A stretch of 63,730 nucleotides of DNA, the filler included, from Collodictyon triciliatum (lineage: Eukaryota), in NCBI GenBank assembly GCA_043381765.1. It is 17 parts of 17 records of this genome, joined end to end, with 100 filler letters (N's around TTAATTAATTAA, not from the genome) between each part and the next. Parts side by side here need not be neighbours in the genome. Positions count along the whole stretch, not along the records: positions 50,773 to 54,262 come from JBHJMP010007256.1; 16 more parts are not named here. One strand, written 5' to 3'. The translations under genes and the position numbers were made by a program. Positions 3,499 through 61,598 of this stretch are shown here, one piece after another; position 1 is the stretch's first letter, and each line of letters starts with the position of its first letter. A model generated the notes under the pieces. The model searched no databases and was not told the origin of the DNA. It saw only the letters and a program-made list of their open reading frames with translations.

Positions 3499-3598
3499 NN
3501 NNNNNNNNNNNNNNNNNNNNNNNNNNNNNNNNNNNNNNNNNNTTAATTAATTAANNNNNNNNNNNNNNNNNNNNNNNNNNNNNNNNNNNNNNNNNNNN
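3499..3598. other. Artificial contig linker N44-TTAATTAATTAA-N44 (stops in all six frames)
   Basis: The identical 100-nt linker recurs at 7097, 10694, 14290, 17942, 21535, 29121, 32712, 36304, 39898, 43490, 47081, 50673, 54263, 57854 and 61444. Confidence 0.98.
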
Positions 3599-3790: not shown

Positions 3791-4059
3791 GTTTTTTCAT
3801 ATCCGTTCATAAGTCACAGAAGAACCCATATATATCTGTGTGTGTCAAACCCCTAGTAACCATTCAAGAAGCAATTAATATATTTAGCTTAAGAGAAAAA
3901 GAACTAATTTAAAGAGTAGTTTTACGTGACTGTGTCTTTTTCTTTGTTTTGCTTCTTTTACTTTTCTTCATTTATCCATTTATCCATTTATCCATTTATC
4001 CATTTATCCATTTATCCATTTATCCATTTATCCATTTTCCTCTCACTTTCGCTTTCAAG

Positions 4060-7016
4060 GAGGACGAATGTGGCATCACTTCGATTTACTTGCCCTCGAA
4101 TCAACTAAAGGGCATTTTACCATCTATTAAGGCGGAACTGGAGCAGTTTCCTATGATAAAAGCCATCAACTTTGATCAAAACTTGCTTGTTGGAGACTTG
4201 TCGGACCTTGCCGAACTAAACACCACCGGACTGGAAAGCCTGTCGCTGTCATCCAACAGCATCGATGGAAGCATTCCCGAATTCAAGTATCTGACGTCTC
4301 TATTCCTACTGGACCTCAAGTCCAACCTTCTCCAGGGGAACACACCTGCTTTCACGTACAGCCGTAACCTTGAGTCGATCGACCTATCGAACAATCGACT
4401 CAGTGGGACAATCACCCCCTTTTGCCATCTGCCGTATATCAGGGAATTCTTTGTGAGCCGAAATGCGTTGGTTGGCGAGGTCCCGGATCTTTCCACCTGC
4501 TCCAATCTAGTGATTGTGGACTTAAGCACCAATTTGTTGGAGTCCAACTCCATAAACCTGTCATTCCCGCCCCTCATCGAGACTATCAACTTGTATGGAA
4601 ATCGAATCTATGGCGAGTTGGATTTTTTCAGGAATCTCTCCTCCGTGAAGGTCCTGGATTTATCAAACAATTTCCTCAGAGGAAACTTGATGTACGACAC
4701 TCTCCCTACGGCGCTAGAGATTCTTTCAGCTTCCTACAACTACCTCGACTCGACACTTCCTGCGTTTATCCGAGGCCCTTCCATTCGCCAGATAAACATG
4801 GAAGACAACTACATCACGGGGGTGATTCCTTCATTTTTGGGCTCCCCGTATCTTACAAATCTCATTCTGTCGATCAACTGTTTAAACTTTACAATCTATG
4901 ATTTTGACAAAATGCCATCCATTCGTGTCTTGTCCCTGTATCAAAACATAATATCTGGTACTTTGCCCAACTTTTCTAGAATTCCTAACATCGTTGGTTT
5001 GTATCTCCATGGACTTCACTTGACCGGACATATTCCTACTTTCACAAGCATTCCCACCATCGAGATCTTCTCGGCATTCATGAACAGGCTCAGTGGCAGT
5101 GTCCCTAATTTTGAAAACTGCCTAAAGCTTCGAGAGCTGTATCTCTTTGGGAATGAACTGGAGGGCCCTCTTCCTGACTTCAGTCCTAACGTAAACCTTG
5201 TGAGACTTTCCCTCTTCATGAATAGATTATCTGGTCCACTGAAGGAAGAGCGACTTCCTAAATTCCTTCAAGTACTCCAACTTTTTCTCAATCACATGAA
5301 CGGTACCGTCCCCAAGTTTGAGAAACTGGTATACTTGCAATTCATTGGCATCAATGAAAATAAGTTTGCTGGGGAACTGCCTACTTTTGGGAACTTGGTC
5401 GATCTCCGCAATGTCTATTTGAACGGAAATTCGATTGTTGGAAAGCTCCCTACTTTCGAAAACAACTCTTACATTAGCGAAATCAACTTTTCCTCAATGA
5501 GTCTAACTGGGGGTATCCCGGAGTACATATTACCCAATATTATCAGCATCGATTTTTCCAACAATCAACTAACTGGAGAGATTCCTCATCTGACTGGCTG
5601 TCCAAAACTAAGTGTCCTGATGCTTTACAGAAATGGATTGTACGGAAAGTATCCAAAGCTCAACAGCACTTCCCTTACCCAGATAGATTTTAGCTTCAAC
5701 CACATCTACGGTGAAATCTCTACATTTCGAGGGACCCCAAAGTTGATTTCCATCGACATGTCACACAACAATATCCGAGGTCCTCTCCCATCGACTGAAG
5801 CTATTCCCAATTTAAAGATCATATCATTCTCCAATAACAAACTGACAGCGTTACCATCCTCCTTTTTTTCTACCGAGTCAAAACTGGATTCTATTGATTT
5901 GAGCTATAACCTGCTGTCATCTGATATCCATGCGCTGTGCTATCTCTTTACCAAAAACATTCCAACCTCTGCTTTTCCGGCAAGAGATATTAATCTAAGA
6001 AATAACTCTATAACAGGGGATGTGGATGGCATCATATACTTTTTCTTTTCAAAAGCTGCATCGGTCGATTTTGCAAATAATAAGCTATCAAACCTTGGTG
6101 ATCCTTCAGTCTCTGTTAATTGGGAATATCTCGATGTATCTGGAAACCCTATAGTTGGTCCTATCCCGGAGTCAATCTCCCAGCTCAAAAAGCTCACTAG
6201 CTTCAATGTTTTGTCAACAAATATGAAATCTCCAGATGGTCTTTCTCTCCCTACTAGCTTCCATGTGACAGATTCGTATCAATTATCGGATTTGAAAAGG
6301 AATTACTTTTGCCCTATCATAGTAGGGAATAATCAATCTGCTACAGTGCAACTGGAGCCAGCATACTACAATTATGAGTATTGTAATTGTATTCCTAACT
6401 ACTATGGCCCTCGAAATAAATGCATTTCATGTCCTGAGGAATGCAAGTGTTTGGGTGGAAAGAGAATCCAGAACTGCTACCCCATTGAAAAAGAGAACGA
6501 GATAGACATTGTTGTATGTCCTTTACGGGAAGCCTGCAATCCAGATTTCTATAATGATTTTGAATGTGCAGAAGGATTTGAAGATCGTCTTTGCTCTCGA
6601 TGTTCTTCTGGATACTTTATGAGAGATCGCCAATGTATCAAATGTGATGATTCGATTCGATATGTTTCCATTGCAGCTGTTGCAGTGTTTGTGTTTTTCC
6701 TCGTACAGTTTGTGATAAAGTTGTCATCTAATGGGTCGGGTATGTACTTGTTATACAGACATATATAATATAACAACATAAGTCTACACTTGTTTTAATT
6801 TTTCTCATTATTACGAAGAGAAAATACAGATGTTTCTAATTCATCCTAATAAAAAAAATTAAAACGAACATCTTATTTATAGGTATTTTGAGGATTCTCT
6901 CTCTCCACATACAGATGCTAGGTATGTTAACCTCTTCGATCATAACTACGGAATCATCTAGCCTTGGCAGTATTCGGTCTCTTTCAAAGGCTGCTCTTGT
7001 GGGGAATATCTTTGAT
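4060..7016 (+). CDS. Large extracellular LRR + Cys-rich + transmembrane receptor-like protein (partial at both ends)
   Basis: Exon 4060-6739 has ~25-30 plant-type LRRs (LxxLxLxxNxLsGxiP), a Cys-rich region (CPLREAC...CAEGFEDRLCSRCSSGYF...CIKC) and a TM helix. Phase-1 intron to exon 6883-7016 (GILRILSLHIQMLGML), typical of protist Cys-rich multi-TM receptors. Confidence 0.85.
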
Positions 7017-7202
7017 GTATGATAGAGTCCTCATGTTTTCCGTTTTTACTATACTCAAGATTATTCATTTTAATGAAAATTTCAAAAAAAAAAAAANNNN
7101 NNNNNNNNNNNNNNNNNNNNNNNNNNNNNNNNNNNNNNNNTTAATTAATTAANNNNNNNNNNNNNNNNNNNNNNNNNNNNNNNNNNNNNNNNNNNNTTGT
7201 AG

Positions 7203-9878
7203 AAAGTCTTATACGTATGGCTGACACGGTGGGCGTAAAAATTCAACTCAATACACCTGGGTTCTTCCACAATCTTAGACAGTTCCGAGCTGCAGGGTTT
7301 GCCATTCTGCACAGTGAGTGAATACTTCGATTATACGACTTTTTTTTCTCAACGTATATTCATATTGCAAACACAAGTCTGAAATATAAGCACATTTATT
7401 GAAACCAAACCAAACCAAACCAAACCAAACCAAACCAAACCAAACCAAACCAAACCAAACCAAACCAAACCAAACCAAACCAAACCAAACCAAACCAAAC
7501 CAAACCAAACCAAACCAACCAGGCGCACAGTTCCTTAACCAGTGCTGGAATAAGGCCAAGCGCGACAGAAAAGGTTTTTCTTTATTTTAATTTTCGAAGC
7601 AACAACTATCCAAATTTTATCAAATGCATGATACACATGATATCATCACCAAATTACCTTCTGCGTTCACATTTACGTAGCAAAAACAAACTTCCGTGAT
7701 GTCTTCGATTGTGCTGCAAGATGGAGGCGCTACTCTGAGGTTGATATTTTTACAGACTCACGCTTTTCAGGCATATACAAAGTCCGCTAGTATATCACGA
7801 AGATTAATTTTCACCTCACGATGACAATAACAAATATGATTCGTATTTGAATCAAAGAAAGAAAAATACCAGATGAGTTTAATAAAAAAAATACACAACC
7901 AGCCCAATGATAGCGTCTGGTGGGTAGATAAACTAAGTCAGGAAAATTTCAACCAAGGATGGGGCCCACAAACCCCTATGATTAATGGCCAAGTACTCAG
8001 TGCACTTATACATCACCATTTTCACATGTTCATTTTATCCTTAATTTTAATGACGACCATATTACTGCAAATATAATCCACTAAATTAGAAAAAAAATTG
8101 CCTCTGTTTAATCTGCGTGTAACTTGGTTGGTATTTTTCAATCTAAAATTCAAATTCTAATTTCTTTCCTATATCTCCTCCATTCCACAGCTGAATGTTA
8201 TTCGCTATTATCCTTACTACAAGAAAGCGTTCAAGCTTCTTGTTGAATTGACGCTCCTGCAATGCGCCACTGAAGAAACCAAGAGAATCGTGCAAAGTAC
8301 TTACACCTAACGATATCACAAACATAGTAGACGTCTAAATCCAATGTCTGCTCATGAATACATGTTCTTCTTTTCGGAATAATTTGTTCCTTTTTGAACC
8401 AAACCTTCTCAGACCCTCTCATCTCATGTTCGATCTATCTAACGCAATTGTACTTTGTGTTCAAATCTTGGTAGGGGTTCCTGATGTCAAAGAGCTCCGA
8501 AAGCTGGTCCAAAGAGACTTCTGGGTTACTAGCGAGTGCGACAGGTAATCACATGTATCCTAATTGAATACTCTAATTGAATATGACAATAACAAGCCAT
8601 ATACATGGTCAATTATACGCAATTCACAATTTTTGTGGGGATTAGTATTGTTCGCCCTGGTGGCAAAATGGAAGCAACACTCCTCACTGTGATTGTAAGT
8701 TTACTTTTCAAACCATGAAGTACAAATATGTGATGGGCTGTCTCCCTTAAATGCGATGTGAGAATGAGACTTTTATACGGTCATTTTGCGAAGACACATC
8801 AAATCTCAACTTCGTCAGATTTAATATTCTCAGTAACAATTGTCATTTACCGCCCACAAACTTGGTATTGTAGGAGCAAAATCCAGATGGTGTTGAGTTT
8901 TATATTCGAACTCCAGGGGCCAAGGGACGATGGGAAGTCTACGAAACTGTGCGTCTGAATTCATCATTTCATATCGCTATATTCGTCCCCTTCCAACTTC
9001 TACTTGTTCATATGCACCACCCATCGTATTCATGATACATTGCATTTCCCATGGAGCAGGTATACCGACATTCATATTATCTACCCTCTCTCAAAGTAAA
9101 ACATAACAAGAATAATAAATATTTAAAACGAAAACCACCACTCTCTTGTAGGAAATGGACGGACTATTCAAGCAACTCCAGGACCAAGCCACTCGTCCTC
9201 TGCTGAATCAAGACAAGTGCACATTTATTTTATTTTGCATTATATGTTTCTGCTGTCCCAATGATGGCATACCATATTCATGTTTGATTTTTTTTTTTTT
9301 TGGAAAGTCAATACTACCATACCAATAAATAAATATAAATATACAAAATAGCACATCATACCAAACTAATGAACAAGTATGCAGGATTATCGAACTTGTC
9401 GTGTTCATCGTCTACTACTGGTTTAATTTCCAACCGCTGACCCGCGGTTCGGCGGTCGTTGGGTACATCATGCTTCACGCTCTGTTCCTATCACTCGATC
9501 TTGAAATCACGGAACCCGTCCCTGATAATGTTCAGTTCGATTGGGAGGCCATTCTGACTCCAAACCCACGCGAGTACCTGCAGGTTTGCTCTTGTTCAAT
9601 ATCAACACACCATCCACTCGACATCTCTCATCGCTCTGTGCTCTGTGATAATCGACCGATACGCCCATCCTACATGGAAGCCCTGTTATCCAAACAATAC
9701 CTGCATATTGACACTTTTTTTGCGGGGCGCGCATTGCGCTGTGTAGATAATCTCTCCGTGGATCAAAAGATCCCTGAAGAAGACGAGCATTCTGAAGTCT
9801 GTCCCGTACAATATCAGCTCGACCTTCAACACCATTCGGAAGGTTCTTACCGCACTGCACCCCAATTCCCTCAACTAA
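7203..9878 (+). CDS. TTC13: TTC13/SRFR1-like TPR protein, C-terminal half (multi-exon)
   Basis: Spliced exons give ADTVGVKIQLNTPGFFHNLRQFRAAG, FRDVFDCAARWRRYSE-PNDSVWWVDKL..GWGPQTPMINGQ, NVIRYYPY, EFYIRTPG..GRW and YYWFNFQPLTRGSA...DWEAIL, matching the conserved SRFR1/TTC13 C-terminal blocks. Stop TAA 9876-9878. Confidence 0.85.
7402..7516. repeat. (AAACC)n intronic microsatellite
   Basis: Tandem pentamers inside a TTC13-like intron. Confidence 0.95.
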
Positions 9879-47291: not shown

Positions 47292-48233
47292 CAGCGTCTC
47301 CAATTGTAGAGAGGTCACGGCAAATACGTTGGAATTCACCTGCAGGAAGACGTACAACCGACTATTGCCGGAATATGAATGGTTCGAGTGAATGTTCCAT
47401 TTGCGAGAGCAATAGCCGTTCGTCCGCGTTTCGACTCAGTTAAGAACACAGAGGGAGGAGATGTGCGTGCAAGCAGATTTATACGCAGACGCGGTGTTAT
47501 GGCCAAAGTCATGTGAATTGAAGAGTGAAAAATCTAGTGTAATCTAACCTTGTACTCCGTCTCTGGGATTCCAAGGTGCTCACTGTCGATGTCCATGAGC
47601 TTCACCTCAAAGTCTGAGGTGCGGTCACCGGCTACAGGACAAACGCACATGTATAAATATTTTTTAATATCTTCCCCAATAGCCCTCAAGGATACTGAAC
47701 CCAAGTATAAATGAAAAGCTGGCGATTTCAGAGAATATCAAGCGGTCGATGTGCAGAAGATGGATTCAGAAAGTCGAGACAGAGTAATGGGTATTGAAGG
47801 TTAGTTGTAGCATGTGACGCACAGGGATATGAGAAAATAAATAAATAAAAATAAAAAACAGATAAGGGGGCATGAAGAGCCTAGGGGTCAAGTGACCAAG
47901 AGCAGGCGGCTTACACTTGGTCTCAAAGACGAAGGTGACCGTGTCGCCCTGTTCGTCGGCACGGAGGGTGATTGTGTCGTCGTTTCCTGCGCACTTGAGA
48001 ACCTTGCTGACGGTGTTGAGATTGAGGCCGAGAGCCACAGGGCGGTCGCAACGGAAGTGATCGAAGCCCTCGCTGCGCAGGGACAGGGCAACCAGCGAGA
48101 CGTGGGACGAGTCCATGGCCTGCAGCGTTATCCCTGTGGCCTTGCACTCAAAGTTTGCGTCGTTGACGAGCTCCTTGATGGAGTCCAGGATCTTCTTGAA
48201 AAGGTTGCCTTGGACAAGTCGTGCTTCCAGCAT
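47292..48233 (-). CDS. PCNA: PCNA sliding clamp, first three exons
   Basis: [76 protein letters not shown]. Confidence 0.97.
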
Positions 48234-48972
48234 GGCGCGGGTAGGTTCGAGGATGGGGGGGGGGGGGGGGGGCTTGACTAGAGTTGAGGATTCTAGTGTG
48301 CAATAAGTTCTTTAGATACAGGGGTGCGTAATTAATAGGTGTGTGTGTACAACTCAACAACGCGGAGCATGCCTACCGAGAAGTGCTTGTGATATAGGTT
48401 GATGAAGCACAAAGCCAAAATAAATAGTGCGAGTGGGAAGAAGCTTCAGAGCAACAGTGTGCTATTTTTTGAATGTTTGAATGTTTGAATTTATTCTATA
48501 TCTGGATTTTATTTTATTTTATGTTTTCTATGGTAAAAATATTGATTATACTCTATAGTAATCTCTAAGTCATTTCACATTATGAAATAACGTATAATTT
48601 CAGAGAATTATACTTGAGAAATTTAATTACCATTGATGAACATACAAGGCAACACTTTATGACTATACCTGACGCATTGGTTCGTTTTGGCGGTGAATTC
48701 AGCCACAACGACAATCTCCTTAACTGGAAATTCAATTCGGGCGTGATTTTTTTGAAAAAAGCCACAAGTTCACCGAAGCCTCGATTGTGCAAATAACACG
48801 CCACATGTGGAATACGCGAGAGACTGAATCTGATTGGGTGCTATTAATATCCATTTACGACTCATTGGAATCCAGAGGAACGACAACAACAATAACAATA
48901 ACGACAACAAAACTCAACTCTAAGTCATTTGTTCCGCACCACATTTCCAGCCCCAATTTCATTATTACAACA

Positions 48973-49326: not shown

Positions 49327-50091
49327 ATGGCACACCGACACCGACACCGACACCGAGACCGACACCCGCGGGTCGCCCTCGCAAGCACCACCGCAGCCGT
49401 CACGCTGCTCCTGGCCGTCGCGGCCGCCCTGGCCTCCTCGCCCCAGCAGGCGGCGCCGTGGACGGGGCAGACGGTCCGGACGGGGGGCGACCGAGCGGGG
49501 CTGTCCTCGGCCGTGCGCGTGCAGCACACCCGCGCGACGCTCTTTGCGGTGGGCCTGCCCAACCTGCCCGCCCCCGCCCCCGCCCCCGCCCCCGCCTCCG
49601 CCCCGCTCGAGCGCCGCCTCAACGTCACGCTCTCGCTCCGCGCCGTGTTCCTGGCCGACGGCTGCGCCTCCCTCCGCATCGACGTCCCGCGCGCCCCTCC
49701 CGTCTCCGCCGTCTCGCTCTGCGGCCACCCCGCCGCCCCCGCCGCCGCCCCCCTCCGCTGGACGTTCGATCCGCTGCTGCCCTCCGCACTCACCGCGTCC
49801 GACGCGCTCACTGTCACTCTCCTCTCCGACACCGCCGACCTCGTCCTCCTGCCCGCGGCCTCCTTCGTCCTTGTCTCCCTCGCCGGTCTGCCCTTCTCTT
49901 CGCCGCTTTCTCCAGGCGTGTTGACATTCCCGCCCCAACCCACATCTTCACACGGCTCATATCCATCCCTTATAGACACGCAGCCCGATCTCCCTGAAGT
50001 GCTCCCCGTCCCCGTGGCCAAGGCCGATGCCCGACGTGTCCCTGGAGAGACTCCGTCCAACTCCCTGTCTGAGTCCAACCAAATCCCGACT

Positions 50092-50127
<36 letters not shown>

Positions 50128-50672
50128 CAGTCAATCACGAAGTCTCAGTCCCAGTCGCGCTCCTTCTCAGAGTCCAACCAAACGCCCTCTCAGTCTCAGT
50201 CACAGTCTCATTCCCAATCATTATCGCAATCTCAATCCCAGTCCCAATCCCAATCCCAATCCCAATCCCAATCCCAATCCCAATCTCAATCCCAGTCCCA
50301 ATCTCAATCTCAATCCCAGTCCCAATCTCAATCCCAGTCCCAATCTCCATCGCAATCGCAATCCCACTCCCAATCACAATCCCACTCCCAATCGCAATCC
50401 CAGTCCCAATCCCAGTCCCAATCTTCCATTCCAGAGCCCATCATCACATCGGTGTCCACGAACACCGGCCCTGCTGTTGGTGGAACCCCCTTCACTATTT
50501 ATGGCTCCGGATTTCTATCGTTTTTATCTTCTCCCCAAGTATTTATCGGCGAATTCGAGGCTATCGTTGGGTTCCACACTGGTACGTTGATATCTTGCAT
50601 CTCTCCTCCCGGTATAGGTCGAGACCTTCCCATCAAAGTCATAAGCGGGAGCTATGTTCTCGAGGCTACTTC
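49327..50672 (+). CDS. Secreted/surface protein: signal-like helix, unknown domain, long (SQ)n linker, IPT/TIG domain (3' truncated)
   Basis: AAVTLLLAVAAALASS signal-like segment; ~110-aa Ser-Gln repeat region; PIITSVSTNTGPAVGGTPFTIYGSGF..VFIG..ISCISPPGIG is IPT/TIG. Confidence 0.8.
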
Positions 50673-50772
50673 NNNNNNNNNNNNNNNNNNNNNNNNNNNN
50701 NNNNNNNNNNNNNNNNTTAATTAATTAANNNNNNNNNNNNNNNNNNNNNNNNNNNNNNNNNNNNNNNNNNNN

Positions 50773-50870
50773 ACTCTTTTCTACTCTTTTCTACTCTTTT
50801 CTACTCTTTTCTACTCTTTTCTACTCTTTTCTACTCTTTTCTACTCTTTTCTACTCTTTTCTACTCTTTT
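50773..50870. repeat. (CTACTCTTTT)n decamer repeat at contig start
   Basis: Tandem units. Confidence 0.95.
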
Positions 50871-50898
50871 CTGCTCTGCTGTGTGTATTGCGCAATCA

Positions 50899-51095
50899 TA
50901 TGGGGACAATTTGGGAAGAGATCGAAGCCTTTGCAAAAGAGTTTTATGGGCCCGCTGAAAGCCACAGTAAGCCAGCCACTTTGGTCGCTCTCCTGACCAA
51001 CTCATATTCGCTGGCTTAACCCCTCTAGCGGCCTAGCCTTATCGCGGGTAGGGCGAATTAGAAAAAGGAAAAACATTTTGTGTTCCCCATAAACC
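50899..51095 (-). ncRNA. Candidate Fanzor omegaRNA scaffold (multi-stem structured RNA)
   Basis: Nested inverted repeats 50943-50950/51086-51093, 50952-50961/51022-51031, 50968-50976/51010-51018, 50981-50986/50995-51000 and 51032-51038/51047-51052. Lies 3' of the Fanzor ORF on the same strand. Confidence 0.55.
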
Positions 51096-51269
51096 CTATT
51101 TTCTTTTCATGTGGATGTGTCTTAATATTTTCATCTTAGTCGCAACTGTTGGTAATAAAATAAACGAAAGGAGGAAAAGTGTAAATATATGCAACAAGCT
51201 TTAGCCTCTTTCCTTTCCTTTTTTTTTTTCAAAGTGCGGAATATTTCGTTGAGGCTTTATATAACATTA

Positions 51270-53293
51270 CTAGAAGGGATATAACATCTTTCGATTGGTA
51301 AACCTGGTGCCGAGTATCCAAGCTCTCAATCCACTTTTTTTACAAAGATTGTGTAGTGGAAGGTTGCATGGAAAGGCCCGACAGCCTGTTTTTTTAGGGG
51401 AAGGTGTGGGCATATTTTGAAGGATGAAAAGAACTTTGCTGAGTATATTATTAGTGCTGTTAAAGTCCCTTGTCAAGAATACAGTTTGTTCGCTTTCTGA
51501 GCGATTGCATTTTTTACATATGAGACATCTATACACCGTTTTTTTTGTATTTCCTTTCAGTTTCATATATTCCAGTTCTTTTTCGCAGTTGCAACACATC
51601 TTGGAGGTTCTAAATTCATCTACACTAACTGCTTCAAAACGTTTGGATAGTATTTTTCGTAATCATCTTCCTATTGTTGCCATAAAATGTTTCATCGGAC
51701 ATTTTCTGCTCCAGTCTCCATACGTCAGTGCAACATCCTTGCCAAATGTCTTTTCGATTCGGTCCATAAACAACGGTTCATTTCTTTTTATATTAACATA
51801 ATGTCTCCAATTCATCTTTCGAAAAGTTACTTGTTCATAAAATCTAGAAAATTCTATCTGGTATCTTGATTTCATAGATATATATATTCGATTTTTTTTT
51901 CATAATTGACCATGCATGAATTATGTTTACTCAGTTCTGTCTCTAATTCGATTAAAGATACTCTTGATGTCTCAAACTGCTAATTCTCTTCAAAAGTCCT
52001 GAGACCAAAAGAAACAACACTTTGTAAATCTGTTGTCATGCATATCCCTGAAGTATTGTACTTTTTCTTTTCTTGCGTAAGAGTATTTTGTGATTTTTAA
52101 GAGATTTACTATCATGTCTTCATTAGTGTGCCGTGTAACGTAATTTCTTGCCTATCTCATCCGCCATGTAAACCAAATTAAACTTGCCTGCGTCCACTCC
52201 AACTTTTTTTTTTTTCGCTAATTGAGATAACTGCCCTTCGGAAAGTTCATCTATATAAATGTATTCTCGGGGGTTTTTTTTTTATCATATTGAATTTTGA
52301 ATTTTAAATCCCTTTCTTTCGAACAATAATGACACCGCCAAGCCGTCTGTTTGTATCATGTATTTAAAATTGTAGTCTGTACGATTAAAATACCACTTTA
52401 CTTCATTTCAAAGAACTCATCCCATAGGGTCTCTTTGCATCCTGATATATTCTTCATTTATGATGTTTTTCCAGTTGATACTATTATATATCAAACATGC
52501 ATTATCTAGACTAATATGACATGGTGTATTGTTAGTTCTTATAGGGATTGGTTGAAACAGTTTGGTTCCAATGTCCTCAAAAATACGATTCATGTAAATC
52601 AGACATGGAATGTACTTATTTGGATTGACTTTGACGTCATATTCGATACCTTTTACAATATCGCTGGGAATGATATGATGCAAATGGAGTAGAGCCCATT
52701 CTTTATATTGTTCCGGTATTTCGAGTTTCTTGAAGATGGCTTTTTTTATTAAAAAAAAAAAACTTTGCCTTTTTAATAGCTCCCGTAATATCCTCATTTT
52801 TAGGAACTGTTTGATTTATAAAGCGCAGTGGCCTCTTTACAAAATGCTCCTTGATGTTATTATGATTAGCTGTTAACATTTGCTTCTCCAAGTACGGTAA
52901 TAGTGAGACAGTCCAACCAACGGAAAGCGGTCTTCTTGGGACAAAAGGAATCGAAAATCATTGAGATAAGAAGTCATCAAGTCTTTACTCATTTTTGGGT
53001 TTTTTTTAATCTTGCGTGTCTATCTTGTGAAGCTACTCCTTATGTCTTTAAAGCGTACAAAAAAAAAAAAAAACCATTTCATCGATTGTTAGGAGTTGTT
53101 GTGATTTCAATACGTAACATCTGGCAAACATTTAAGTGTCGGTAACCAAATTATGACACAATAAAACCGTATTGTTGATTTTGTATTTGTCACCCTCATT
53201 CTTTACAATCAAATTTAGAGATGTTTTCACATATCGATGGCCTAGCTTTACAGACTTAAGATTATCAGACTCGAGTCATTTTCTCTTCTTCAT
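51270..53293 (-). pseudogene. Fanzor1 (eukaryotic TnpB-like RuvC nuclease), decayed by stops and frameshifts
   Basis: YVKTSLNLIV; NNIKEHF..LRFIN; YDVKVNP..YMN..KLFQPIPIR; IQTDG; RuvC-I VGVDAGK (D 52192-52194); YGDWS; RuvC-II VDEFRTSKMCCNC (E 51615-51617); CKKC; RuvC-III TRDFNSTNNIL (D 51465-51467). Confidence 0.9.
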
Positions 53294-54166
53294 CTGAAAT
53301 TCTTTGTTTTACTTTTTTCTTTAGAAAACTACCGATTTTTCAATTTTAATAAAACTATAGCCAATCTGTCAATTTTATATAAAAATAAACTGCACAAAAT
53401 CAATTTAGGTAAAATTAAGCATCCACCGAGACCCTCAAAATGTGCGCTTTGTGGCAAACAGACTCGCCAAGTTTTTTTTTTTTTTAAAGTGATTTGAGAC
53501 AAAACGCTGAGAGCCGATTCGGCGAGTTTGAAAGGGCGGCCGCATAGCCATTGCGACTGAAAGTCAACATATTGGTCCCAAACAACATGATTACCGCCGC
53601 AAGTGTGGATAGTATGCTTTTTTGAAATGCATGTTTGGTGGCAGGTTTATAGGATGGGTTCTATCTGGATCAAGGCAAGGGCTTGTTTGTAATTTTTGAA
53701 TTTTTGTATTAATATTACATAAATGAACAATAAAATATAAATTGGTTACCTAAATAGAATGAGATTATTAAGTATTTTTAACCTTATATATACTAATTCT
53801 ACTATTATATTATTCAGGTTGTTTCTTGGATTCATCAAAGTTCATGCTTTTGTCAATTCAGATTTAATTCGATGGTTGTCATCGCATTAAACCGCTATCT
53901 ATCTGTGTACACTGTCGTTGTATAAAAAGTGGTGTGCCTTGAAAGGGATAAAACCGAGTTTGTCACAGCCTTTGTAATGAACTTTATCCATTTACAGGCT
54001 AAATGAGACCAAAGAAAAGAAAAAGGAAAAAGAAAGAAAGAAAGAAAAGGGGAAAATGGAAAAGATGAATGAATCAGAGCAACTAATAATGAGCATTATA
54101 TTCATAATTATATTGCTGCCTGTGAGTCGATGGCTTGAGCTCGATTGGTCTTTATTTATTCTCCTT

Positions 54167-54260
<94 letters not shown>

Positions 54261-54415
54261 TTNNNNNNNNNNNNNNNNNNNNNNNNNNNNNNNNNNNNNN
54301 NNNNNNTTAATTAATTAANNNNNNNNNNNNNNNNNNNNNNNNNNNNNNNNNNNNNNNNNNNNAGATATATGCTGTTCATTTGTTCCCTGAGTATATTACT
54401 TAATCTTAACAATTG

Positions 54416-54526
<111 letters not shown>

Positions 54527-60690: not shown

Positions 60691-61598
60691 CTAAAAACAA
60701 ACAAAAAGANNNNNNNNNNNNNNNNNNAAAAAAAGAAGAAAAAAAGAAGAAAAAAAGAAGAAAAAAAGAAGAAAAAAAGAAGAACAAAAGAAGAACAAAA
60801 GAAGAACAAAAGAAGAAGAAAGAAGAAGAAAGAAGAAGAAAGAAGAAGAAGAAAGAAGAAGAAAGAAGAAGAAGAAAGAAGAAAAAAAAGAAAGAAGAAA
60901 GAAGAAAAAAGAAAAACGAAAAAAGAAAAAAGAAAGAAGAAAAAAGAAAAAAGAAAAAAGAAAAAAGAAAAAGAAAAAAGAAAAGAAAAAAGAAGAAAAG
61001 AAAAGAAGAAAAGAAAAAAGAAGAAAAGAAGAAAAGAAGAAAAGAAGAAAAGAAGAAAAGAAGAAAAGAAGAAAAGAAGAAAAGAAGAAAAGAAGAAAAG
61101 AAGAAGAAAAAGAAGAAAAAGAAGAAAAAGAAGAAAAAGAAGAAAAAAGACAGAGCAGAGCCTGAGTATCTCAGACACAGTCGTCCATCCAGAAGATCCG
61201 CAAAGCCGTGGCGATCATTCTCGCTAATAAGCTGAGACTCACCTTCCTCAACCACAAAATCGGTCCCTTGATCAACCTCTGCGGAAAAGGTGCCGCTTGT
61301 TGGGTCGCTCGGCTCGATGATAGCAGGCGTCTGGTCAGCCGGTTCTGCCGAAGTTGCGTCGCTCATGGAAGTGGGCTGTTTGGACGCAAAAAGCTGTGTG
61401 ACACAGAAGAAAAAAAGAAAAAAGAAAAAAGAAAAAAGAAAAANNNNNNNNNNNNNNNNNNNNNNNNNNNNNNNNNNNNNNNNNNNNTTAATTAATTAAN
61501 NNNNNNNNNNNNNNNNNNNNNNNNNNNNNNNNNNNNNNNNNNNTTTTTTTTTTTTTTTTTTTTTTTTGTTTGGGGGGGGGGGGGGGGGGGGGGGGGTC

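What the first reader, a model, noticed from the sequence alone, without database searches (positions are those of the whole stretch)
51270..53293. Nuclear Fanzor1 RNA-guided nuclease relic with an intact RuvC triad
Seen: fragments across frames join into a Fanzor-length protein with RuvC-I (VGVDAGK), YGDWS, RuvC-II (VDEFRTSK), a CxxC...CxxC zinc finger and RuvC-III (TRDFNS). It is broken by stops (51663, 52120-52125) and by frameshifts, several at homopolymer runs. Established: Fanzors are eukaryotic TnpB homologues guided by an omegaRNA encoded at the element's 3' end. Inference: the N-terminal blocks (KTSL, NNIKEHF, YDVK..P..Y..YMN) resemble giant-virus-type Fanzor1, suggesting virus-to-host transfer. 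Intact copies elsewhere in this genome would be a new programmable nuclease. RuvC-I reads DAG rather than the usual DPG.
Basis: partly seen in the sequence, partly recalled or inferred. Interest (0 to 1): 0.85.

Follow-up and report, generated by a model that had tools for sequence, protein, structure and literature searches.

The report
Dead giant-virus-type Fanzor1 gene copy
This is a badly decayed, non-functional copy of a Fanzor1 RNA-guided nuclease gene of the kind common in giant viruses; such fossils are already known, and this one sits on a short isolated scaffold, so its place in the host genome is not shown.

Summary
Window 53293-51332 (minus strand) reads through as a full-length Fanzor1 homologue, 60% identical over 636 residues to an intact 648-aa metagenomic protein (P0002). 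That protein matches solved Fanzor1 structures by sequence (E 2e-28) and by fold (TM 0.72-0.78).

The D/E/D residues and the four zinc cysteines survive, but 10 of 54 family-invariant positions are lost. No guide-RNA (omegaRNA) scaffold or element end is detectable, although relatives have a strongly covarying one.

The subfamily (Pfam DUF8286) is dominated by giant viruses, so "giant-virus-type" is supported. A virus-to-host direction is not resolved (AU p 0.44).

"Nuclear" is not shown. The window is an artificial chain of about 3.5-kb scaffolds joined by N44-TTAATTAATTAA-N44 linkers. The relic lies alone on a 3,490-bp piece with no host gene. Its homopolymer load matches the other scaffolds, which favours a cellular origin.

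Verdict: an ordinary fossil of a known kind, of low interest.

The parts
51332..53293 (-). Decayed Fanzor1 coding region (read-through of 658 positions, 19 of them breaks)
   Evidence: Frameshift-aware alignment to P0002: 60% identity over 636 residues, 10 stops, 9 frameshifts. tblastn E 3e-78 and 3e-74.
52183..52203 (-). RuvC-I motif VGVDAGK (catalytic D kept; family-invariant P replaced by A)
   Evidence: D364 and P365 are invariant in alignment A1. P365A is listed among the lost invariant positions.
51600..51623 (-). RuvC-II motif VDEFRTSK (catalytic E kept)
   Evidence: E555 is invariant in A1.
51507..51596 (-). C4 zinc-finger (TNB) region, CxxC...CxxC
   Evidence: The cysteines align with invariant C562, C565, C587 and C590. 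The Pfam Cas12f1-like_TNB match is weak: E 0.0012, 19.4 bits, below the 26.3-bit cut-off.
51456..51473 (-). RuvC-III motif TRDFNS (catalytic D kept)
   Evidence: D604 is invariant in A1.
51237..51440 (-). Place where the omegaRNA scaffold and right end would lie; nothing recognisable found
   Evidence: The covariance model R1 gives only E 4.4-5.3 here. nhmmer profiles of the right end give no hit here. A by-eye resemblance at 51282-51319 is not statistically supported.
53294..53345 (-). 5' leader upstream of the ATG; weak likeness to the left-end leader of relatives (CT(T)AAAGA about 30 nt before the ATG)
   Evidence: Alignment, judged by eye only. The R1 hit at 53307-53530 has E 0.48 and is not significant.
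50773..54262 (.). The real scaffold carrying the relic (3,490 bp), bounded by artificial linkers at 50673-50772 and 54263-54362
   Evidence: linkers N44-TTAATTAATTAA-N44. 14 of 16 complete pieces are 3,490-3,498 bp.
50773..50877 (.). 10-mer microsatellite (ACTCTTTTCT x 10.5) at the scaffold's start
54151..54260 (.). TTTA and TTA microsatellites at the scaffold's end

Best explanation
The locus is a dead copy of a single-gene Fanzor1 element. It belongs to the DUF8286 subfamily, whose members are mostly found in giant viruses of aquatic protists.

In living relatives the unit is about 2 kb. It has a short leader, an ORF of about 600-650 aa for an RNA-guided RuvC nuclease, and an omegaRNA scaffold. 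The scaffold begins inside the last ~100 nt of the ORF and ends at an almost invariant terminus, GGTGTAA; the guide would be read from the DNA beyond it (inferred from solved Fanzor1/TnpB systems).

Here that unit entered the organism's DNA, lost function and then drifted neutrally. It picked up stops, frameshifts and the homopolymer runs typical of this assembly. It now makes no nuclease, and no recognisable guide RNA is encoded.

Shown: homology, the breaks, and the loss of invariant residues. Inferred: residence in the cellular genome, and the original mechanism.
For: Family:
- P0002 against solved structures: GtFz1 2.1e-28, PpFz1 2.7e-24, SpuFz1 3.7e-23.
- The window's own piece: PpFz1 3.8e-9.
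- AlphaFold model of P0002 (pLDDT 79.9): TM 0.72-0.78 to SpuFz1, against 0.23 to mimivirus Fanzor2 and 0.21 to TnpB.

Decay:
- 10 stops and 9 frameshifts.
- 44 of 54 invariant and 25 of 35 near-invariant positions kept.
- The window's tree branch is 0.47 against 0.25 for P0002 from their shared node.

Relatives' architecture:
- Blocks of about 2.0-2.4 kb are shared between different viral contigs.
- The right-end motif is found in 135 of 139 loci examined, and 117 of those 135 end in GGTGTAA.
- A 13-pair stem inside the ORF's 3' end has 86% of cells paired, against 41-53% when slid. All 13 pairs show double changes, and 0 of 500 shuffles reach the observed values.

Cellular residence:
- Homopolymers of 10 or more: 6 in the 3.49-kb relic scaffold, 2.04 per kb inside the relic ORF, and 0.77 per kb in the other 16 pieces.
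- The same measure is 0.06 per kb in 1.2 Mb of the 160 viral and metagenomic loci, and 0.011 per kb in their 139 intact Fanzor ORFs.
- Microsatellites lie at both scaffold ends, and the flank ORFs have no viral or other domain.
Against: - There is no physical link to any host gene. The relic's scaffold is 3,490 bp and stands alone.
- The subfamily is overwhelmingly viral, and the scaffold's GC (0.335) lies within the range of the viral loci (0.20-0.41, median 0.288). A decayed copy in viral or endogenised viral DNA therefore cannot be excluded.
- The homopolymer signature could partly reflect how this assembly was made.
- No TIR, target duplication or element end could be defined, so 'element' rests on relatives only.
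- The omegaRNA model was built from relatives only 38-47% identical in protein. An intact but diverged scaffold could be missed.
Confidence: 0.72

Rival explanations
1. The scaffold is not host chromosomal DNA. It comes from a giant virus, or a large endogenised viral region, that was sequenced together with the organism, and the pseudogene lies in viral DNA.
For: The subfamily is mostly viral: 253 IMG/VR relatives, NCLDV capsid genes on 2 of 2 records searched, and Atlas clusters that are 92-100% viral. The scaffold has no host gene and is unlinked. Its GC lies within the viral range. Fanzor fragments inside endogenous giant viruses of algae are described (passages of 10.1101/2024.09.03.611062).
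Against: 19 disabling lesions in 2 kb are unusual for replicating viral DNA. Long homopolymers are about 30 times denser here than in the viral and metagenomic loci and match the other scaffolds. Microsatellites lie at both ends. tblastx of the whole window against 160 loci with their viral flanks found no other viral-like gene on this scaffold.
Confidence: 0.2
2. The gene is intact or nearly so, and the breaks are sequencing or assembly errors in a fragmentary draft.
For: 2 of 9 frameshifts lie at long homopolymers. The assembly is highly fragmented.
Against: There are 10 in-frame stops of three kinds, and 7 frameshifts away from long homopolymers. 6 invariant residues are substituted apart from the breaks. 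Other scaffolds hold long open frames, for example 951 aa at 3913-6768, so the assembly is not generally error-ridden.
Confidence: 0.03
3. The frame is read through by an unusual genetic code, RNA editing or tiny introns, and still yields a protein.
For: None beyond the preserved catalytic residues.
Against: TAA, TGA and TAG all occur in frame. Host-like genes on other pieces are open under the standard code. Homology is continuous across the breaks, with no intron-sized inserts.
Confidence: 0.01

Closest known systems
Guillardia theta Fanzor1 (GtFz1, PDB 9cer) and Spizellomyces punctatus Fanzor1 (SpuFz1, PDB 8gkh), with Parasitella PpFz1 (9cf0)
   Same: Same family. The intact relative P0002 aligns over most of its length (E 2e-28 to 4e-23) and its model superposes at TM 0.63-0.78. 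It has the same D/E/D and C4 layout. In relatives the guide scaffold overlaps the ORF's 3' end, as described for SpuFz1 (passages of PMC10432273).
   Different: Only about 20% identity to these proteins. The window's copy is broken and has no detectable omegaRNA. No 30-nt inverted repeats like those of the Spu-1 element were found.
Giant-virus Fanzor1 elements (PGv-1 and relatives, Bao and Jurka 2013; Fanzor families A-C of the Chlamydomonas endogenous giant virus)
   Same: The same DUF8286-type protein is abundant on NCLDV contigs. Virus-host sharing of Fanzor fragments is already reported: a fragment on Chlamydomonas chromosome 17 is 80% identical to a viral copy (passages of 10.1101/2024.09.03.611062). 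The idea that viruses spread Fanzors dates from 2013 (passages of PMC3627910).
   Different: Those elements often carry a Tc1/mariner transposase, TIRs and TA duplications; none is seen here. The window plus P0002 form a separate long branch (stem 0.67), at most 47% identical to the viral copies.
Fanzor2 / IS607-type TnpB (e.g. mimivirus ApmFz2, PDB 9b0l)
   Same: RuvC plus zinc-finger core of the TnpB superfamily.
   Different: The fold match is poor (TM 0.23). There is no TnpA. The large N-terminal REC-like half is of Fanzor1 type.

Membership tests
Fanzor1 | Split RuvC domain with catalytic D, E, D | tested here: met
   D in VGVDAGK, E in VDEFRTSK and D in TRDFNS align with invariant D364, E555 and D604 of 16 relatives.
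Fanzor1 | C4 zinc finger between RuvC-II and RuvC-III | tested here: met
   Four cysteines align with invariant C562, C565, C587 and C590. The Pfam TNB match is only 19.4 bits, under the 26.3-bit cut-off.
Fanzor1 | Full-length homology and fold of solved Fanzor1, distinct from Fanzor2/TnpB | tested here: met
   Window piece against PpFz1: E 3.8e-9. The relative P0002 has TM 0.72-0.78 to SpuFz1, against 0.23 to Fanzor2 and 0.21 to TnpB. The fold was tested on the relative, not on the broken copy.
Fanzor1 | Open reading frame able to give the nuclease | tested here: not met
   10 in-frame stops and 9 frameshifts.
Fanzor1 | omegaRNA scaffold at the 3' end reaching the element's right end | tested here: inconclusive
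   Present with covariation in relatives. In the window there is no significant covariance-model or HMM match, but the models come from distant relatives.
Fanzor1 | Carried by a transposon with definable ends (TIR/TSD or subterminal structures) | tested here: inconclusive
   No convincing inverted repeat. An 18-nt T-run direct repeat flanks the locus (51219-51236 and 53474-53491), but it is low in complexity.
Endogenous giant-virus element (GEVE) | Neighbouring NCLDV hallmark genes on the same DNA | tested here: inconclusive
   None on the 3,490-bp scaffold, but the scaffold is too short to decide, and other pieces of the window are unlinked.
Nuclear (host-integrated) copy | Physical linkage to host genes or host-level coverage | not testable with these tools
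The only indirect support is the homopolymer and microsatellite signature.

The most novel reading that the evidence does not exclude
The window's relic and the intact 648-aa P0002 mark a separate, long-branched offshoot of the giant-virus Fanzor1 subfamily that has settled in cellular genomes of a freshwater protist lineage. In this offshoot the protein tail that overlaps the guide scaffold has changed: KKQAVGYSSTALTVT in place of the clade-wide EKVGQSVDFTVGKAT. Its omegaRNA core may therefore be re-tooled. Living members of this offshoot would be a distinct natural RNA-guided nuclease with an unfamiliar guide scaffold.
Probability: 0.15. Interest if true: 0.5.

Novelty: new member of a known kind. 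Interest (0 to 1): 0.2.

Why it matters
It matters little by itself. The locus adds one more fossil showing that Fanzor1 genes of the giant-virus type end up, and die, in DNA sequenced with protist genomes. That pattern has been proposed since 2013 and is documented in Chlamydomonas.

It has two practical uses. First, it flags that records built by chaining small scaffolds can mislead a reader about gene neighbourhood. Second, it points to an intact relative (P0002) on a long branch, whose guide-RNA end is unknown and could be examined if its DNA is retrieved.

Tried and rejected
- **Whole-genome search:** no genome is held.
- **Sequencing runs:** Copy number, linkage and expression are therefore untested.
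- **P0002 as a single query in IMG/VR:** 36 pattern matches, none confirmed.
- **Inverted and direct repeats around the locus:** only low-complexity pairs.
- **Covariance model R1:** its automatic structure held only 8 base pairs, and it gave no significant hit in 50000-54500.
- **nhmmer profiles of the last 45, 70 and 130 nt of relatives' right ends:** no hit at the expected place. I therefore withdraw my by-eye reading of a right-end remnant at 51282-51319.
- **RNAalifold on alignment A2:** it found only one stem. A second hairpin that shows swaps by eye is out of register in the MAFFT alignment and was not counted.
- **tblastx of the whole window against the loci:** hits at 7382-7516 are a tandem repeat. 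The hit at 47949-48233 is a eukaryote-type PCNA exon.
- **Rfam:** no match in the window.
- **Pfam on 7 flank ORFs:** nothing below E 0.2.
- **Earlier scan notes:** none for this genome or for P0002-like sequence.
- **Literature search 'Fanzor1' + 'pseudogene':** 0 papers.
- **Supplementary tables of PMC10432273 and PMC10530073:** these list Fanzor loci by species but could not be seen. They may already include this organism.

Full report
**What is there.** On the minus strand from 53293 to about 51332 the window holds a full-length homologue of a Fanzor1 nuclease gene. An intact 648-aa metagenomic protein, P0002, was found with the window's C-terminal 209-residue translation, with its one TGA read as X. 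By tblastn, P0002 hits only this place in the window, in four pieces over three frames (E 3e-78 and 3e-74). A frameshift-aware alignment that I scripted covers P0002 residues 1-646. It shows 382 of 636 aligned residues identical (60%), 10 in-frame stops (5 TAA, 4 TGA, 1 TAG) and 9 frameshifts. Only two frameshifts (near 53071 and 53006) lie at homopolymers of 8 or more bases.

**Family.** The local Pfam copy gives only a sub-threshold Cas12f1-like_TNB match (19.4 bits). The relatives carry precomputed PF26935, which the Atlas names DUF8286.
- P0002 matches solved Fanzor1 chains by sequence: Guillardia theta 2.1e-28, Parasitella parasitica 2.7e-24, Spizellomyces punctatus 3.7e-23.
- The window's own piece matches PpFz1 at 3.8e-9 and SpuFz1 at 1.3e-4.
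- An AlphaFold model of P0002 (16-row alignment, pLDDT 79.9) superposes on SpuFz1 at TM 0.72-0.78, on PpFz1 at 0.70 and on GtFz1 at 0.63. It reaches only 0.23 on mimivirus Fanzor2 and 0.21 on ISDra2 TnpB.
- The exhaustive HMMER search found 1,426 representatives at E up to 1e-3.

**State of the copy.** In an alignment of 16 intact relatives (A1), D364, E555, D604 and C562/C565/C587/C590 are invariant, and the window keeps all seven. However, only 44 of 54 invariant columns and 25 of 35 near-invariant ones are kept. Four invariant positions are lost to breaks. In the tree the window's end branch is 0.47 against 0.25 for P0002. From 10 stops in about 650 codons I infer very roughly a tenth of a substitution per site since inactivation. 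This is an inference, not a measurement.

**How living relatives are built.** 253 were confirmed and 80 kept. The metagenome scan gave 195 confirmed of 482, with 80 kept. Of five viral loci offered, only two records were held. Both carry Capsid_NCLDV genes above the cut-off, and the 14 control genomes gave none. Different viral contigs share blocks of about 2.0-2.4 kb around the gene.

Of the 160 loci, 139 had a complete ORF end with at least 140 nt beyond it; the other 21 were dropped. In 135 of those 139, a right-end motif (TTTAAAT, a few bases, GGTGTAA, up to 3 substitutions) lies 0-148 nt past the stop, most often 80-82 nt. 117 of the 135 end exactly in GGTGTAA, after which similarity stops.

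I aligned 37 of 50 non-redundant 162-nt ends (A2). The 13 I left out were the most divergent, or had a doubtful end call; I chose them by eye before counting. On A2, a two-part stem that I read off the alignment, lying inside the ORF's last ~100 nt, has these properties:
- 86% of 436 cells are paired, against 41-53% when the partner is slid.
- All 13 pairs show changes on both sides.
- 0 of 500 shuffles reach the observed values.

Because the structure came from these same sequences, the slide control is somewhat generous. Even so, this is the expected signature of a Fanzor omegaRNA scaffold overlapping the ORF's end. It also explains the conserved protein tail EKVGQSVDFTVGKAT.

**No guide end in the window.** The covariance model from A2, whose automatic structure held only 8 pairs, gives nothing significant in 50000-54500. 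At the expected place the matches have E 4.4-5.3. nhmmer profiles of the right end likewise find nothing there. A resemblance I saw by eye at 51282-51319 therefore does not stand. No convincing inverted repeats or target duplication flank the locus. The scaffold may be decayed, or diverged in this lineage: P0002's tail reads KKQAVGYSSTALTVT instead of the clade-wide motif. I could not obtain P0002's DNA to tell which.

**Where it lies.** The window is not one stretch of chromosome. It contains 16 linkers of the form N44-TTAATTAATTAA-N44, which cut it into 17 pieces. 14 of the 16 complete pieces are 3,490-3,498 bp. This is a chain of small unplaced scaffolds of similar size. The relic's piece is 50773-54262. 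PCNA (47766-48311), the TIG-domain gene, sideroflexin, a kinase and the LRR gene are on other pieces. They show only that the assembly is eukaryotic.

On the relic's own piece the flanks have no Pfam domain and no likeness to viral flanks. Indirect evidence still favours cellular DNA:
- Microsatellites lie at both ends.
- Homopolymers of 10 or more bases number 6 in 3.49 kb, and 2.04 per kb inside the dead ORF.
- The same measure is 0.77 per kb in the other pieces, 0.06 per kb in 1.2 Mb of the 160 loci, and 0.011 per kb in 139 intact Fanzor ORFs.

The copy has thus taken on the sequence habits of this assembly. Two NCBI-sourced fragments on contigs of 582 and 513 bp (P0019, 83% identical; P0047, 70%) also look decayed and may be sister copies. 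Their origin is unknown to me.

**Virus to host?** Of the 30 nearest Atlas clusters, 28 carry DUF8286. The four top clusters listed are 92-100% viral, mostly Nucleocytoviricota, and one cluster at rank 26 is mostly Chlorophyta.

I built a quick LG+G4 tree of 54 rows. The rows were the window read-through with X at breaks, 9 proteins, 13 of the 80 viral loci, 23 of the 80 metagenome loci and 8 distant representatives. In it the window and P0002 pair (SH-aLRT 100, stem 0.67) inside a 32-row group that holds all 13 viral rows, but with support of only 88. An AU test does not reject placing the pair outside that group (p 0.44). The kinship is clear; the direction of transfer is not.

**What is already known.**
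- Fanzor1 in giant viruses, and the suggestion that viruses spread Fanzors, appear in Bao and Jurka 2013 (passages read, PMC3627910) and in Saito et al. 2023 (passages, PMC10432273).
- Jiang et al. 2023 describe conserved 3' non-coding RNAs (passages, PMC10530073).
- A preprint on a Chlamydomonas endogenous giant virus reports a Fanzor fragment on a host chromosome 80% identical to a viral family (passages, 10.1101/2024.09.03.611062).
- Earlier notes of this scan describe similar giant-virus Fanzor elements in other genomes. I treated them as leads only.

**Verdict.** This is a real but dead Fanzor1 copy of a mostly viral subfamily, and a new instance of a known phenomenon. The claims 'nuclear' and 'virus-to-host' remain unproven.

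Noticed in passing
window 3499-3598, 7097-7196 ... 61444-61543 (16 sites): The window is an artificial chain of separate scaffolds joined by 100-nt linkers N44-TTAATTAATTAA-N44. 14 of 16 complete pieces are 3,490-3,498 bp. Gene neighbourhood across linkers is therefore meaningless.
   Followed up: yes
window 47766-48311 (-): First exon of a eukaryote-type PCNA gene (PCNA_N, E 1.8e-49). The best database match is 95% identical to a EukProt transcriptome protein; the next matches are about 70% to plants and green algae. It lies on a different scaffold from the relic.
   Followed up: partly
window 51219-51236 and 53474-53491: An 18-nt direct repeat (T11-12 followed by C/T-AAAGTG, 17 of 18 identical) brackets the relic 2,255 bp apart. 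It is low in complexity and possibly chance. I could not tie it to a target duplication.
   Followed up: partly
L001-L160, last ~160 nt of each Fanzor unit: Relatives share an omegaRNA-like scaffold that ends in GGTGTAA (117 of 135 loci with the motif). The commonest following bases start with AA. The conserved protein tail EKVGQSVDFTVGKAT seems to be held by the RNA rather than by the protein.
   Followed up: partly
P0019 (136 aa) and P0047 (84 aa), NCBI-sourced contigs of 582 and 513 bp: Fragments 83% and 70% identical to the window's C-terminal part that also look frameshifted or degenerate. They may be further dead copies in the same or a related assembly. P0019 has W (TGG) where the window has the TGA stop at 51663-51665.
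   Followed up: partly
P0016 cluster (JGI): A truncated member of this Fanzor family is named '6-pyruvoyl-tetrahydropterin synthase' by its source. This is probably a mis-annotation.
   Followed up: no
window 7382-7590: A 15-nt tandem repeat (reads GLVWF / TKPNQ in translation) gives spurious tblastx hits to many viral loci.
   Followed up: yes
whole window: Homopolymers of 10 or more bases are unusually dense (0.77 per kb outside the relic), and most scaffolds end in microsatellites or purine-rich repeats. The assembly evidently breaks at simple repeats.
   Followed up: partly
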